A stretch of DNA of 64,000 nucleotides from a virus. The stretch is from positions 5,068-69,067 of the IMG/VR virus record IMGVR_UViG_3300050144_000081, one strand, 5' to 3'. This document shows, one piece after another, positions 23,172 to 26,390 of the stretch. How positions within the stretch are numbered: position 1 is the first letter of the stretch; every line of letters starts with the position of its first letter. Made by a program: the position numbers and the translations under genes. The notes beneath the pieces were generated by a model. That model was not told where the DNA came from and searched no databases. It saw only the letters and a program-made list of their open reading frames with translations.

Positions 23172-23582
23172 TCAGCGGCATGCGCTGATGGCTTGGTCAG
23201 TCGGGTCGACACCGTTGGCGATAGCCATGGCGCGGTAGTCGGCATGCAGCTCGTGCCCGCCGTCGTGTACGTCGTCGCGGATCTCTCCGCGCATCCGCTT
23301 CATGCGCACCGACAGGTTGTGGTCGGCACCGCGCAGCAGGAAGCCGGCGCAGGTGGCTGGCTTGGTGCTGCCGGACTCGTGACAGGCGAACTGGCGGTCG
23401 CTCATGTCGTGCGCGGTGTTGGCAGCGTGTCGGAACGCCTTGGCAGGGAAGATGCCGGTCTGGTCGACACGCCACGGACACCCGCCGCAGGGCTCGCGCC
23501 GGTAGCACTGGCGTCCGCCTTCGATGGTGACAACCTGGTACGTCTCGTCAACCGGGTTGACGGCGGTGATGGTAGCCGTCAT
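23172..23582 (-). CDS. Cys-rich phage protein (DUF6283-like)
   Basis: PCGGCPWR...FACH...CAGFL. Confidence 0.65.
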   Translation of the reverse strand: MTATITAVNPVDETYQVVTIEGGRQCYRREPCGGCPWRVDQTGIFPAKAFRHAANTAHDMSDRQFACHESGSTKPATCAGFLLRGADHNLSVRMKRMRGEIRDDVHDGGHELHADYRAMAIANGVDPTDQAISACR

Positions 23583-24193
23583 GCCTCACCGCCTTCCACC
23601 ACAGCCGGTGCACTGGCCTTCTCCTGCGCTTTCATCTCGTCGTACTTGGCGATGCCCCAGACAAGCGCGTAGCAACACCACAGGAACCGGTGCGTGTACT
23701 CCGTAAAGTTGTCTTCCCAGAGGTCGTTGAAGTGGAACCGCTTCCCTGGGTATATCTGATGGCTGAAGTCGTTGGCGGCAATCTGCTTCCGGTCCCCGCC
23801 AGAGTCTGAATCTGCACCGATCACCTCCTCCAGCACCGTGTCCCACAGTTTGCGCCGTTGCTCGCGGGTGGTGTGGTACTCGTTGTCGCGCACCCAGCGC
23901 AACACGATCTCCTTGATTCTCTGGTCAAACGTCTCTTCGCAGAACTCCTTGACGGGGTTTCGGCAGCGATCTACCCCGACCAGCTTCTCGGACCAGTAGC
24001 TCGGGTTGATCGAGCCGCGATCCGTGCGGAAGAACTTGAACATGTCGGTGGTGCGCTCGAAACAGAACGCGCCCATGTCGCCGCGGTACAGCAGACCCCC
24101 CGGGTACGTGATCAGGTCGAACGACTCGCAGATTGTTTCTGGCCGCTTGAACCGCAGGTGTCGGTACAGCCCGTCATCGCGCAGAGCCATCAT
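23579..24193 (-). CDS. Conserved hypothetical phage protein
   Basis: LRDDGLYRHLRF...GDMGAFCF...YWSEK...FLWCCYALVWGI. Confidence 0.7.
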   Translation of the reverse strand: MMALRDDGLYRHLRFKRPETICESFDLITYPGGLLYRGDMGAFCFERTTDMFKFFRTDRGSINPSYWSEKLVGVDRCRNPVKEFCEETFDQRIKEIVLRWVRDNEYHTTREQRRKLWDTVLEEVIGADSDSGGDRKQIAANDFSHQIYPGKRFHFNDLWEDNFTEYTHRFLWCCYALVWGIAKYDEMKAQEKASAPAVVEGGEA

Positions 24194-24239: not shown

Positions 24240-24536
24240 TCATGCTTCGACCCCTTCCGCCTTGTTCGCCATCATCTCCAGCCGCGCCGCCAGCATGCCA
24301 CTCAGCCACTGGCGGTCGCCGTCATTGAGCACCGGCAGCGCCACGAACTCGATGCCGGCGTCCTTGAGTGCCGCCACCACTTCCAGGCTGGCGCGCATCT
24401 GTACGGGGCTGCAGCGGGTGGTGTTGATCTCGGTCATGCGACGGGTGAACGGGTTGAAGCGGTCCACGGTCTGCGGATTGTTCTGCAGCAGCGGGGTGAC
24501 GCCATTGACGGTGATCTGTGCGGTACGGATGCTCAT
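24240..24536 (-). pseudogene. Apparently truncated/chimeric gene: first ~39 aa resemble a phage RAMP/Cas7-like family, the rest looks unrelated
   Basis: AAGGAGG SD; MSIRTAQITVNGVTPLLQNNPQTVDRFNPFTRRMTEIN resembles the I.G..PLL..N first strand of RAMP-like phage proteins; only 98 aa; truncation inferred. Confidence 0.5.
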
Positions 24537-24564
24537 GATTTCTGACCTCCTTATCAGTCAGGTT

Positions 24565-24770
24565 CTTCCTGTGGACAAGCCCACTGGCAAACCCGAAGGC
24601 TTGCCGCTGTGCTTTGCAGTTCCACGCAGTGCACTGCTGTTCAGTGCTGTGCGGTGCCGTGCCACTGGTGGAAAACCCACCGGCATGAGCTGGTTGCCCA
24701 TGCCGCTGTGCTTGTCGCTGCCGTTCCCTGCGATGCTATGCAATTCAGCGCCTTGAGCTGCAATGCCTTC
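24565..24770 (-). repeat. Two tandem ~99-nt units: (NN-GCA) pentamer tract, conserved AAGCACAGCGGCA, two hairpins; candidate structured RNA array
   Basis: 13 and 12 pentamers in register; identical 13-mer at + strand 24602-24614 and 24701-24713; hairpins GGCAAGCC-TTCG-GGTTTGCC and GGCATGGGC-AACCA-GCTCATGCC. Confidence 0.75.
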
Positions 24771-24809
24771 ATTATGAACAAGAAAAGCATTTATAGTGCT
24801 TCTTCAGTG

Positions 24810-26390
24810 CTAATTTAGTCCAAGCGCAGCATCCAGCGCCGACGCCATCTCTTCCGCTGTCCGCTCGATGACCGTGGTGATCCCGGCCTGGCTCGGGCGC
24901 TGCTCGATGTAGTGCGCATCCTCCAGGAACGCGAAGCTCATGGCGTCCGCCAAGTCCGGCGACTTGATGCCGAGGGTGCGCATGTCCTCCTTCTTCATCA
25001 TCTGGTAGCGCAAGCCACCAGCCTCGACGAAGTGGTAGGGCAGCCGGCTCACCTGGCCGATGATCTTCTCGCGCATCTTGAGCGACAAGCCGAGCGGCAT
25101 GCGAACGCGCCCCTGCTTGACCGCGTCGCGGAACCGAACCATGGCGCACGCGCGCCGGTTGTAGTACCGGTCCTGGTACTCGCGCTTGAAGCATGGCTTG
25201 CCCCAATTCACGCGCTCCACCGGCACGCCAGCGCGCTCAAGCAGCTTGCACACGGCCGACCCAACGCCGCCCGCGTCAACGTAGAGCGTGGCGTTCTGGA
25301 TTTCGCCGAACAGCGACTGCAGATCTCCCGTGAAGTCGATCTCGTCCTTCTCGTTCGTGCACAGCGGTATTTCCAGGTACTCGACGCGCCGAGCGTCCTC
25401 ACCGAAGTCGCTGTAGCCGGCCACCTTGGCGATGATGGCCACCGAGTCGTCTCGGTACTCGCCCATGCCGACGTCGGACAGGATCATCAGGCCGAATGGC
25501 TCGTCATCCCCGATGATCCGGTCATCCCGGAATACTGCCTCCACATGGTCGCGCGTCAGCAGGAAATCGCTTTCGTTCTGGGCGAACTGGCCCAGCACAC
25601 GAACGCGGTACTCCACGCTGTTCCGCCCGCCACTTTCGTGCTCGCGCGCCTTCAGCCACTCCGTCGTGACGAACGGGCTGTTCTCGCTGTTGAAGACCAG
25701 CGAGACCCATGTCCCACCGTTGTCGACCGACAGATCGTGGTGTGTCCGGTAGAAGTAGCCCGCAGCACGAACACCCTGGCTGGCAAGCAGCGTGCTGTTC
25801 ATCGGCTGGGTTTGCGTGCCCTCAATCACATCGAAGTGGCCATCCTCGATGCCGGCCGCTTCGTCGCCGATGATGAGCTGGTGGTATCGGTGCTTGCCAG
25901 CGATGCCGATGGACTGCCCCTTCTGCATCGCCACCTGGCTCACGAACCACTGCGACTCGAATCCATTGACCACGATCGAGGTCTTGTTGATCGTGTAGTA
26001 GTCGCGCAGCCATGCGAAGTCACCCGATGCAATGGCAAGGTCGGCGTCGTTCGCCTCCTTCCACACGCCATCCGCCACCTGAGAAAGCCGGGCCGCGCCG
26101 ACGTAGGTGTTCGAGCCGATCTCGACCTTGCCGTCGTAGAAGGCATACGGCCTGGCCAGCAAGTGCCAGAGCACGATGCGGCCGAACGTGTTCGTCTTGC
26201 CCGTGCCAGTGCCAGACACCACGGACACCTTCGCCAGCGGCAGACTGATCTCGGTCAGCAGGTCAATCTGGTCCTCGGACGGGACCATACCGCACACCTC
26301 GATGGAGAAGCGCAGGGCATCCCCGTAGTAGCGCGCCACGAACTCAGGGTAGCGCGGATCATCGAGGATTGTCTTTCTCTTGCCGGCCAC
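24810..26390 (-). CDS. Terminase large subunit (PacB-like)
   Basis: Walker A-like SGTGTGKT, Walker B LIIGDEAAGI, nuclease DVG.G...D and KSPDLADA motifs. Confidence 0.92.
   Translation of the reverse strand: MAGKRKTILDDPRYPEFVARYYGDALRFSIEVCGMVPSEDQIDLLTEISLPLAKVSVVSGTGTGKTNTFGRIVLWHLLARPYAFYDGKVEIGSNTYVGAARLSQVADGVWKEANDADLAIASGDFAWLRDYYTINKTSIVVNGFESQWFVSQVAMQKGQSIGIAGKHRYHQLIIGDEAAGIEDGHFDVIEGTQTQPMNSTLLASQGVRAAGYFYRTHHDLSVDNGGTWVSLVFNSENSPFVTTEWLKAREHESGGRNSVEYRVRVLGQFAQNESDFLLTRDHVEAVFRDDRIIGDDEPFGLMILSDVGMGEYRDDSVAIIAKVAGYSDFGEDARRVEYLEIPLCTNEKDEIDFTGDLQSLFGEIQNATLYVDAGGVGSAVCKLLERAGVPVERVNWGKPCFKREYQDRYYNRRACAMVRFRDAVKQGRVRMPLGLSLKMREKIIGQVSRLPYHFVEAGGLRYQMMKKEDMRTLGIKSPDLADAMSFAFLEDAHYIEQRPSQAGITTVIERTAEEMASALDAALGLN

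What the first reader, a model, noticed from the sequence alone, without database searches (positions are those of the whole stretch)
24240..24810. Two structured NN-GCA pentamer units before a RAMP/Cas7-like gene: candidate gapped-code guide-RNA system
Seen (minus strand, after a CATAAT -10-like box at 24771-24776): unit A has 13 pentamers (7 GCA; the others GAA/GCG/TCA/GAC) with variable dinucleotides AG TT GC AG CT TT TA TC GG CG GC AA CA. Unit B has 12 pentamers (8 GCA) with TG CG CC CA CT CA GT CT TG CT AA CA. Both end in AAGCACAGCGGCA, then a GGCA..TGCC hairpin (one with a UUCG loop) and a GTGG..CCAC hairpin; period 99 nt. Next comes an SD and an ORF starting ITVNGVTPLLQNNP. From memory (to be verified), phage VIPR systems pair a RAMP protein with RNAs of alternating constant GGY and variable NN that read a gapped DNA target. 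Inference: a variant with a GCA constant triplet and two guides; the protein gene here seems truncated, so it may be a remnant or rely on a trans-acting copy. Alternative: a protein-binding array.
Basis: partly seen in the sequence, partly recalled or inferred. Interest (0 to 1): 0.85.

Follow-up and report, generated by a model that had tools for sequence, protein, structure and literature searches.

The report
Orphan VIPR guide RNAs, GCA type
This phage keeps two guide-RNA genes of the recently described CRISPR-like VIPR system, written in five-base units with a fixed GCA, but has lost the protein genes that use them, so it is a further example of a known kind and not a new system.

Summary

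**What is there (minus strand, 24571-24768).** Two ~100-nt units follow the large terminase gene. Each has 10-11 NN+GCA pentamers, a constant AAGCACAGCG and two hairpins.

**The ORF behind them.**
- It is a chimera: codons 1-39 are the start of a Vipr protein and the rest is a DUF1382 protein.
- The full-length family matches the solved SUSP1 Vipr (PDB 36pp, E 9e-29).
- Its model folds like Cas7/Csm3.

**The intact relative.** A contig 93% identical in DNA carries the complete locus: two units, a 199-aa vipr and a 141-aa vap1-like gene. Homology to the window stops at 24419.

**Pattern of variation.** Tails and leader are nearly identical to that relative, while the NN positions are 25-45% identical. 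This is the expected signature of guide RNAs.

**What is missing.** The 85-kb phage has no other vipr and no vap.

**Targets.** I found none above chance.

**Function.** The RNAs could act only with a Vipr supplied in trans, or they are relics.

**Novelty.** Three 2026 preprints already describe VIPR, solo guides in vipr-less phages and non-GGY triplets. This scan has also flagged VIPR on other DNA before. I rate it a new member of a known kind. The GCA triplet is not named in the text I could read.

The parts
24810..26390 (-). Large terminase gene (intein-less allele), directly upstream of the array. Context only.
   Evidence: phrog_2/phrog_5902. Close relatives carry a 1023-nt intein inserted at window 26205/26206.
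24771..24776 (-). CATAAT -10-like box 2 nt before unit A. A possible promoter, inferred only.
   Evidence: Conserved in the intact relative L041. The consensus promoter scan found no full sigma-70 site.
24714..24768 (-). Unit A guide tract: 11 pentamers. NN = AG TT GC AG CT TT TA TC GG CG GC. Triplets are GCA x6, GAA x2, TCA, GCG and GAC.
   Evidence: NN are 10/22 identical to L041, against 27/33 for the triplets.
24704..24713 (-). Unit A constant tail start, AAGCACAGCG.
   Evidence: Identical in unit B and in L041. Relatives L014, L015 and L040 have AAGCA(A/C)AGCG.
24682..24704 (-). Unit A tail hairpin 1: 9-bp stem, AACCA loop.
   Evidence: MFE fold. Compensatory changes against L041, which keeps 9 pairs with a different stem sequence, and across relatives.
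24667..24681 (-). Unit A tail hairpin 2, GGTGGGTTTTCCACC.
   Evidence: The same 15-mer closes units in L014 and L040, and in the GGC/NN array of L120.
24615..24664 (-). Unit B guide tract: 10 pentamers. NN = TG CG CC CA CT CA GT CT TG CT.
   Evidence: NN are about 5/20 identical to L041 unit B', while the flanking tail is 100% identical.
24571..24614 (-). Unit B tail: AAGCACAGCG, hairpin 1 (8 bp, UUCG loop, 24586-24605) and hairpin 2 (GTGG..CCAC, 24571-24584).
   Evidence: 100% identical to L041.
24546..24552 (-). AAGGAGG Shine-Dalgarno box of vipr, now serving the chimeric ORF.
24420..24536 (-). vipr stub: codons 1-39 of a Vipr (RAMP) protein. It carries the GCA-type beta-1 motif PLLQNNP.
   Evidence: phrog_4652 positions 2-41. 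88% identical to the L041 Vipr N-terminus. 113/117 nt identical to L041.
24418..24419 (.). Recombination junction. Homology to VIPR+ relatives ends at 24419.
   Evidence: The blastn block ends at window 24419 = L041 7706. A contig of run X21 leaves the window at 24419 and runs on into the intact vipr reading.
24240..24419 (-). Nearly complete DUF1382/phrog_292 protein fused in frame behind the stub (residues 40-98 of the 98-aa ORF).
   Evidence: PF07131 E 4e-15, profile positions 2-57 of 60. phrog_292.

Best explanation
This is a VIPR locus of the SUSP1-like (type II-like) kind that has lost its protein genes.

In intact relatives the order is terminase, two vrRNA genes, vipr (199 aa, a Cas7-like RAMP), then a vap1-like gene. 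Here a recombination at 24419 replaced everything after vipr codon 39 with unrelated phage DNA and fused the stub in frame to a DUF1382 gene. Two vrRNA genes remain. Each encodes a 5' guide tract of 10-11 units (two free bases plus a fixed GCA) and a constant 3' tail of AAGCACAGCG and two hairpins.

By homology with SUSP1, one Vipr protomer would hold each fixed triplet and present the NN pairs. Those pairs would read double-stranded DNA with every third base skipped, and binding would silence transcription.

The phage makes no Vipr, so its RNAs can act only if a related GCA-type VIPR+ phage or prophage in the same cell supplies the protein. This is what has been reported for vipr-less SUSP1-like phages.

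My odds:
- VIPR-derived locus with a truncated vipr: about 0.9.
- RNAs still made and used in trans: about 0.4.
- Inert relic: about 0.45.

Shown here: homology, fold, array association, NN hypervariability, the breakpoint, and the absence of vipr and vap. Inferred: transcription, Vipr loading, the skip rule for GCA units, and action in trans.
For: **Chimeric ORF.** Residues 2-41 match phrog_4652 and residues 40-95 match DUF1382.

**Protein family.**
- Full-length homologs are 197-200 aa, in a family of 859 hits with no Pfam domain.
- The family profile matches PDB 36pp 'SUSP1 Vipr protein' at E 9.1e-29 over the full length.
- BLASTP of the intact ortholog against SUSP1 Vipr gives 26% identity, E 2e-24.
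- The AF2 model has pLDDT 88.6, and the top Foldseek PDB hits listed (50 rows) are all chains of type III (Csm/Cmr) or type VII CRISPR effector complexes, with probability up to 1.0.
- The neighbouring gene family matches SUSP1 vap1 by hhalign, probability 83%, E 9.5e-6.

**Arrays.**
- 26 of 31 family loci have in-phase GCA arrays: 64 on the vipr strand against 3 on the other.
- The control gave 3 weak or false hits in 1.24 Mb.
- Vibrio phages phiHSIC and 1.266.O show the same arrays around their vipr genes.
- Over 605 pentamers the NN entropy is 3.85 of 4 bits. The triplet positions are 88-93% G, C, A, and the alternative triplets (GAA, GGA, GCG, TCA) are the ones seen in the window.

**Intact ortholog L041.** It is 93% identical in DNA from the small terminase gene to vipr codon 39. 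Its tails and leader are about 100% identical to the window, its NN are 25-45% identical, and hairpin 1 shows compensatory changes.

**Junction.** It is confirmed by a second contig. 15 separately assembled runs hold the junction-bearing stretch, and one 1956-nt contig spans it.

**Absence of the protein genes.** The 85-kb record (98% complete) has no other vipr or vap.

**Protein residues track the triplet.** The two GGY-type proteins examined (SUSP1 and L120) have H17, R138 and W/Y178. The GCA-type proteins aligned have N, no R, and F at those places, while D177 (which contacts G1) is kept.

**Precedent.** 346 vipr-less phages with 1-2 solo vrRNAs have been reported.
Against: No transcript evidence exists: all holders are DNA contigs. 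The consensus scan found no full promoter.

No target above chance was found under the 1-nt-skip rule:
- own genome, maximum 65-68% of NN;
- held relatives;
- IMG/VR seeds;
- representative genomes;
- JGI metagenomes.

8 of 21 guide units carry a non-GCA triplet, more than in the intact relative (5 of 22). That could mean decay. The skip rule has not been shown for any GCA-type system. No Vipr donor is known for this phage's host.
Confidence: 0.87

Rival explanations
1. Same origin, but a dead relic. The arrays merely survived the recombination that removed vipr and vap, they are not used, and they will decay.
For: No Vipr or vap anywhere in the phage. The junction lies inside vipr and is not a clean excision. 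38% of guide units have a non-consensus triplet. No target was found.
Against: Both tails are intact, and unit B's tail is 100% identical to the VIPR+ relative. GAA and the other variant triplets are also common in intact loci. A second, independent locus (L106) keeps three units before a 28-codon vipr stub. Published vipr-less phages keep working solo guides.
Confidence: 0.45
2. A DNA-level protein-binding array, for example a packaging or regulatory site next to the terminase genes, and not RNA genes.
For: It lies directly after the terminase genes. The spaced short repeats could in principle bind a protein.
Against: The same arrays travel with vipr in unrelated genomic contexts and not with terminase. 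Seven terminase relatives lack them. The arrays are strand-specific (64 against 3). The fixed part is conserved while the NN positions vary freely. The 3' hairpins co-vary. This architecture equals the sequenced and purified SUSP1 vrRNAs.
Confidence: 0.03
3. Assembly chimera: the vipr/DUF1382 junction is an artefact of metagenome assembly and the real phage has an intact vipr.
For: The record is a metagenome-derived viral contig. Intact forms exist in other samples.
Against: 15 separately assembled runs hold 100% of the sampled words of the 701-nt stretch that contains the junction. A 1956-nt contig spans the junction without a difference. These runs may, however, include the source sample.
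Confidence: 0.02

Closest known systems
Type II VIPR of Escherichia phage SUSP1 (Vipr, vap1, vrRNAs). bioRxiv 10.64898/2026.04.26.720920 and 10.64898/2026.04.26.720927; PDB 36pp.
   Same: The protein family is homologous (E 9e-29). The vap is vap1-like. The locus order is the same, with vrRNA genes flanking vipr-vap. RNAs are ~100 nt, with 10-13 five-base units and a structured constant 3' tail. The setting is a phage.
   Different: The fixed triplet is GCA, not GGY. The residues that hold G2 and Y3 in SUSP1 differ: R138 is absent, W178 is F, and E71-M72 are T/S-W. The tail is two hairpins and not the SUSP1 pseudoknot as described. In the window vipr is cut after codon 39 and vap is absent.
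VIPR-null phages with solo vrRNAs (SUSP1-like Enterobacteriaceae phages). bioRxiv 10.64898/2026.10.15.759431.
   Same: The phage lacks vipr and vap but keeps 1-2 vrRNA genes at the old locus. Near relatives are VIPR+ and collinear.
   Different: A different Vipr clade (GCA type) and a different phage lineage. The host is unknown; the nearest named terminase relatives are mostly betaproteobacterial. The loss is a replacement with an in-frame gene fusion that leaves a 39-codon stub, not the shared 1.1-1.4-kb deletion. No predicted target on rivals' vipr, vrRNAs or satellites was found.
VIPR-like arrays with non-canonical units (GAC/NN, CAC/NN, WGT/NN, TGH/NN). bioRxiv 10.64898/2026.10.21.760802.
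   Same: Period-5 arrays with a fixed triplet other than GGY, next to Vipr-fold proteins.
   Different: GCA/NN is not named in the text I could read. TGC/NN, which falls within the reported TGH/NN, is its reverse complement, so it may already be counted there. The figure and tables were not available.
Phage-borne orphan CRISPR mini-arrays and RNA anti-CRISPRs (from my own knowledge, not checked here).
   Same: Guide-like RNAs on a virus that depend on, or interfere with, an effector protein encoded elsewhere.
   Different: No CRISPR repeats or Cas genes. A different RNA architecture and pairing code.

Membership tests
VIPR system (Vipr + vrRNA) | A Vipr protein: a minimal RAMP with an RRM core, a glycine-rich loop and a thumb, homologous to SUSP1 Vipr. 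| tested here: not met
   The window encodes only residues 1-39. The 85-kb record has no other copy. The feature is met by the intact ortholog L041 and by the family: PDB 36pp at E 9e-29, a Cas7/Csm3 fold, and the G-loop GFGDFRPTFGR.
VIPR system (Vipr + vrRNA) | vrRNA genes made of 9-16 tandem five-base units, with a fixed triplet alternating with hypervariable NN. | tested here: met
   13 and 12 units. NN are hypervariable (entropy 3.85 of 4 bits; 25-45% identity to the ortholog) and the triplets are conserved. The triplet is GCA, not the canonical GGY.
VIPR system (Vipr + vrRNA) | An invariable, structured 3' tail after the repeat tract. | tested here: met
   AAGCACAGCG plus two hairpins in both units. 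Hairpin 1 shows compensatory changes, and hairpin 2 is shared with relatives and with a GGC/NN array.
VIPR system (Vipr + vrRNA) | An accessory vap gene next to vipr. | tested here: not met
   No vap homolog in the window or the record. A vap1-like gene follows vipr in 30 of 31 related loci; the other contig ends first.
VIPR system (Vipr + vrRNA) | Gapped recognition of DNA targets (1-nt skip) with natural targets on rival mobile elements. | tested here: inconclusive
   No hit above chance in the own genome, in relatives, or in the viral, genome and metagenome collections. The searches needed exact seeds and have low sensitivity.
VIPR system (Vipr + vrRNA) | vrRNAs are expressed as ~100-nt RNAs and bind Vipr. 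| not testable with these tools
   Only DNA contigs hold the stretch.
VIPR-null solo-vrRNA phage | The phage lacks vipr and vap, keeps 1-2 vrRNAs at the locus, and has collinear VIPR+ relatives. | tested here: met
   Two units are kept. L041 is 93% identical up to the breakpoint and carries vipr and vap. A 39-codon stub remains.
VIPR-null solo-vrRNA phage | The solo guides match rivals' vipr, vrRNAs or satellites at 80% or more of NN. | tested here: not met
   The best match on 37 held loci (VIPR-family loci and close terminase relatives) was 17/20. It lies in a terminase intein of L044, not in vipr or vap.
CRISPR-Cas | A CRISPR repeat-spacer array with cas genes. | tested here: not met
   No long direct repeats. 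No Rfam match. The period is 5 nt.

The most novel reading that the evidence does not exclude
The two solo GCA-type guides are kept because they load onto the Vipr of VIPR+ sibling phages or prophages in the same host. They would redirect it against a rival or towards decoy sites. That would extend the published 'guns for hire' behaviour from enterobacterial SUSP1-like phages to an unrelated phage lineage and a different fixed triplet. Guide B's 17/20 match to the C-terminal motif of the terminase intein, which the siblings carry and this phage lacks, would then be a first hint of such a target.
Probability: 0.2. Interest if true: 0.6.

Novelty: new member of a known kind. Interest (0 to 1): 0.4.

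Why it matters
VIPR is a months-old discovery and most of what is known comes from one E. coli phage.

- This locus and its relatives show a large sister family that writes its guides with GCA instead of GGY: 859 database hits, spanning Vibrio phages, Comamonadaceae prophages and many metagenomes.
- Matching changes occur in exactly the protein residues that hold the second and third fixed bases in the SUSP1 structure. That gives a natural experiment on how Vipr reads its RNA.
- The window also shows that losing the protein while keeping the guides is not confined to enterobacterial phages.
- The practical gain is annotation. These genes are 'hypothetical' in every record I saw, including the GenBank phages phiHSIC and Vibrio phage 1.266.O.

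Tried and rejected
**Rfam.** No family matches the region.

**Close phage records.** blastn 'distant' against 50,697 phage records found nothing.

**Terminase relatives L002-L008.** They have no array after the terminase gene, so the locus is an insert and not part of the packaging module.

**Self-targeting.** The best match was 65-68% of NN under the 1-nt skip.

**Guides of 54 arrays against all held loci.** Hits at 85% or more were at chance level for every skip length.

**IMG/VR scans with four 8-NN seeds.** They gave 17, 6, 9 and 27 hits. The best extensions were 20/22 and 19/20. That is what chance predicts, and the skip base was not at the wobble position.

**Full 10-NN patterns.**
- Representative genomes gave one hit each, in an Acidimicrobiaceae MAG and a Nitrospira MAG.
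- JGI metagenomes gave five hits for guide B, two of them at the same Nitrospira-like locus.
- This equals the chance expectation.

**Guide B on the terminase intein of L044.** The match was 17/20, with P about 0.01 against shuffled NN order. I reject it as a target for now. The orthologous sites score 15/20 or less in L041 and lower in L045 and L126. The skip base falls on codon position 2, and several guide variants were tested.

**An apparent 29-unit GCA array in L082.** It is a coding 15-nt tandem repeat, a false positive of my crude detector.

**Other leads that failed.**
- 'Relatives' cannot be drawn for a virus record.
- The supplements of the first VIPR preprint are not held. I therefore could not check whether GCA/NN is among its seven types.
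Full report
**1. The observation.**
- On the minus strand, after the stop of a 526-aa large terminase gene (24810-26390; phrog_2), lies a 273-nt intergenic stretch.
- It holds CATAAT (24771-24776) and then two units.
- Unit A (24667-24768) has 13 pentamers and unit B (24571-24664) has 12.
- Both units end in AAGCACAGCG, followed by a GGCA..TGCC hairpin and a GTGG..CCAC hairpin. MFE folding returns both hairpins in both units.
- The best 13-pentamer span has eight identical in-phase triplets. No one of 2000 dinucleotide shuffles reached that (mean 3.5, maximum 7).
- These are the only such arrays in the 85-kb record, and they sit on one strand only.
- Rfam has no match.

**2. The ORF behind the array is a chimera.**
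- The 98-aa ORF (24240-24536) starts 9 nt after an AAGGAGG box.
- Residues 2-41 match the first 41 positions of the 194-position family phrog_4652.
- Residues 40-95 match nearly the whole of DUF1382 (profile positions 2-57 of 60).

**3. What the stub belongs to.**
- A library-wide search with the first 42 residues found full-length proteins of 197-200 aa.
- One of them retrieved 859 relatives. All that carry a name are 'hypothetical' and none has a Pfam domain. They include proteins of Delftia, Comamonas and Chromatiaceae.
- A profile of 25 members (A2) hits one solved structure, 36pp 'SUSP1 Vipr protein', at E 9.1e-29 over the full length. The next hit is at E 0.14.
- The AlphaFold model (pLDDT 88.6) finds chains of type III (Csm/Cmr) and type VII CRISPR effector complexes as all its top Foldseek hits.
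- The family is therefore Vipr, the RAMP protein of the VIPR systems described in 2026.

**4. The arrays travel with the protein.**
- 26 of 31 loci encoding this family have in-phase GCA arrays. The loci are 28 IMG/VR contigs, one Fluviibacter MAG and two GenBank Vibrio/Listonella phages.
- 64 arrays lie on the vipr strand and 3 on the other, up- or downstream of vipr.
- In 1.24 Mb of control sequence the same detector gave three calls: two at the 5-hit minimum (in L002 and L003) and one a coding tandem repeat.
- Over 605 pentamers the two free positions have 3.85 of 4 bits of entropy.
- The triplet positions are 88-93% G, C, A. This figure is inflated by how I detected the arrays; the NN result is not.
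- The variant triplets of the window (GAA, GCG, TCA) are also the commonest variants elsewhere.
- A conserved 130-167-aa gene follows vipr in all but one locus, whose contig ends too soon. Its profile matches SUSP1 vap1 (hhalign probability 83%, E 9.5e-6).
- The SUSP1 locus itself has the same layout, with GGT/NN units.

**5. The intact ortholog and the breakpoint.**
- The closest terminase homolog is 98% identical but carries an intein. It led to contig L041.
- L041 is 93% identical in DNA to the window from the small terminase gene to window 24419.
- After two vrRNA units it carries a 199-aa vipr and a 141-aa vap.
- Homology stops at 24419, the first base of vipr codon 40.
- A contig of another run leaves the window at the same base and continues into the intact reading ..KKTRRTDDDY.
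- Nothing downstream of 24419 resembles L041.
- No vap or second vipr exists in the window or in the 98%-complete record.
- The truncated form is not an obvious assembly artefact. 15 separately assembled leaf-litter runs hold all sampled words of the 701-nt stretch, and a 1956-nt contig spans it. Some of these runs may be the source.

**6. Guide-like variation.** Compared with L041:

| Region | Identity to L041 |
|---|---|
| CATAAT box and the unit A start | conserved |
| Unit B tail and the leader to the ATG | 100% over about 95 nt |
| vipr stub | 113/117 |
| Unit A NN | 10/22 |
| Unit A triplets | 27/33 |
| Unit B NN | about 5/20 |

- Hairpin 1 of unit A has a different stem sequence in L041 but keeps nine pairs. 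Relatives with the same tail class (L014, L015, L040) also show compensatory pairs.
- RNAalifold also proposes a pairing between GGAAAGC before the tail and GYTTTCC in hairpin 2. This could be a pseudoknot like the one described for SUSP1. I could not resolve it.

**7. Why GCA instead of GGY.**
- In the SUSP1 structure G1 is read by H17 and D177, G2 by R138 and W178, and Y3 by a pocket that includes E71 and M72.
- In an alignment, the two GGY-type proteins examined have H, R and W/Y at these places. They are SUSP1 (GGT/NN) and L120 (GGC/NN, which has the very same tail hairpin as the window).
- The GCA-type proteins aligned have N, no R, F, and T/S-W. The D is kept in all of them.
- Only the first base, G, is shared by the two triplets.
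- The window's stub carries the GCA-type PLLQNNP motif.
- This correlation is an inference from alignment, not a structure.

**8. Function.**
- Without Vipr the RNAs cannot form the filament. Either they are relics, or they use a Vipr supplied by a related VIPR+ element.
- A preprint of 16 October 2026 reports 346 vipr-less SUSP1-like phages that keep 1-2 solo vrRNAs. Many are predicted to hit rivals' vipr, vrRNAs or satellites. The same preprint shows satellite solo vrRNAs redirecting a phage's Vipr.
- I looked for such targets and found none above chance. Section 9 covers the one weak match.
- The searches needed exact seeds, so absence is weak evidence.
- Two other contigs carry vipr stubs of 28 and 43 codons fused to foreign sequence. 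One has three intact-looking units upstream. Loss of the protein with retention of the guides therefore recurs in this family.

**9. One weak lead.**
- Guide B matches 17/20 at the C-terminal motif of the terminase intein of relative L044 (P about 0.01 against shuffled NN order).
- The window's own terminase gene lacks this intein.
- Orthologous sites in other relatives score 15/20 or less, and the skip base is not at the wobble position.
- I treat it as chance until it is shown otherwise.

**10. Novelty.**
- VIPR, its skip code, its seven types with 'related consensus' units, solo vrRNAs in vipr-less phages, and 21 clusters with non-GGY triplets (GAC, CAC, WGT, TGH) are all in 2026 preprints.
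- GCA/NN is not named in the text I could read. Its reverse complement, TGC/NN, falls within the reported TGH/NN.
- At E 2e-24 to SUSP1 Vipr, the family is within easy reach of the authors' PSI-BLAST.
- This scan has also reported VIPR systems on other DNA before, including an orphan guide and a G-R-A triplet variant.
- I therefore rate this a new member of a known kind.

Noticed in passing
window 26205/26206 (inside the large terminase gene, 24810-26390, minus strand): The window's terminase gene is an intein-less allele. The closest relatives (98%, 85% and 86% protein identity) carry a ~341-aa Hint/LAGLIDADG intein inserted exactly here (L041 4892-5914).
   Followed up: partly
L106 1-778 (JGI metagenome contig) and L105 68-286: These are two more vipr stubs fused to unrelated sequence (28 and 43 codons). 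L106 keeps three NN-GCA units with tails directly upstream, so losing the protein while keeping the guides recurs in this family.
   Followed up: partly
L120 7057-8330 (IMG/VR contig 3300037470_000128): A canonical GGC/NN array and a Vipr about 30% identical to the GCA-type Vipr of L041 use the same tail as the window's GCA/NN units: AGCG, a variable hairpin, then CGGTGGGTTTTCCACC. The fixed triplet and the tail have therefore evolved separately.
   Followed up: partly
L010 (Listonella phage phiHSIC, NC_006953, ORF22 and flanks) and L011 (Vibrio phage 1.266.O, MG592631, NVP1266O_44 and flanks): Two GenBank phages carry unannotated GCA-type VIPR loci. Each has vipr (194-196 aa, 'hypothetical protein') and a vap-like gene. 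phiHSIC has three NN-GCA arrays, all downstream of vipr. Phage 1.266.O has one upstream and two downstream. Each unit begins with a GGGGTAAAACTCAA leader.
   Followed up: partly
L044 7164-7192 (terminase intein of a relative): Guide B of the window matches 17/20 under the 1-nt-skip rule at the intein's C-terminal splicing motif. The window's own terminase gene lacks this sequence. The match is statistically weak and not wobble-phased.
   Followed up: yes
window 24569-24716 (tails), alignment A3: RNAalifold prefers a long-range pairing of GGAAAGC (before the tail) with GYTTTCC (inside hairpin 2) in relatives. This may be a pseudoknot. The motif is only partly kept in the window's two units.
   Followed up: no
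window 23579-24193 and 23172-23582 (minus strand): The genes after the chimeric ORF (phrog_4657, 204 aa; DUF6283, 136 aa) have no counterpart in any VIPR+ relative I fetched. The DNA that replaced vipr and vap belongs to a different module.
   Followed up: partly
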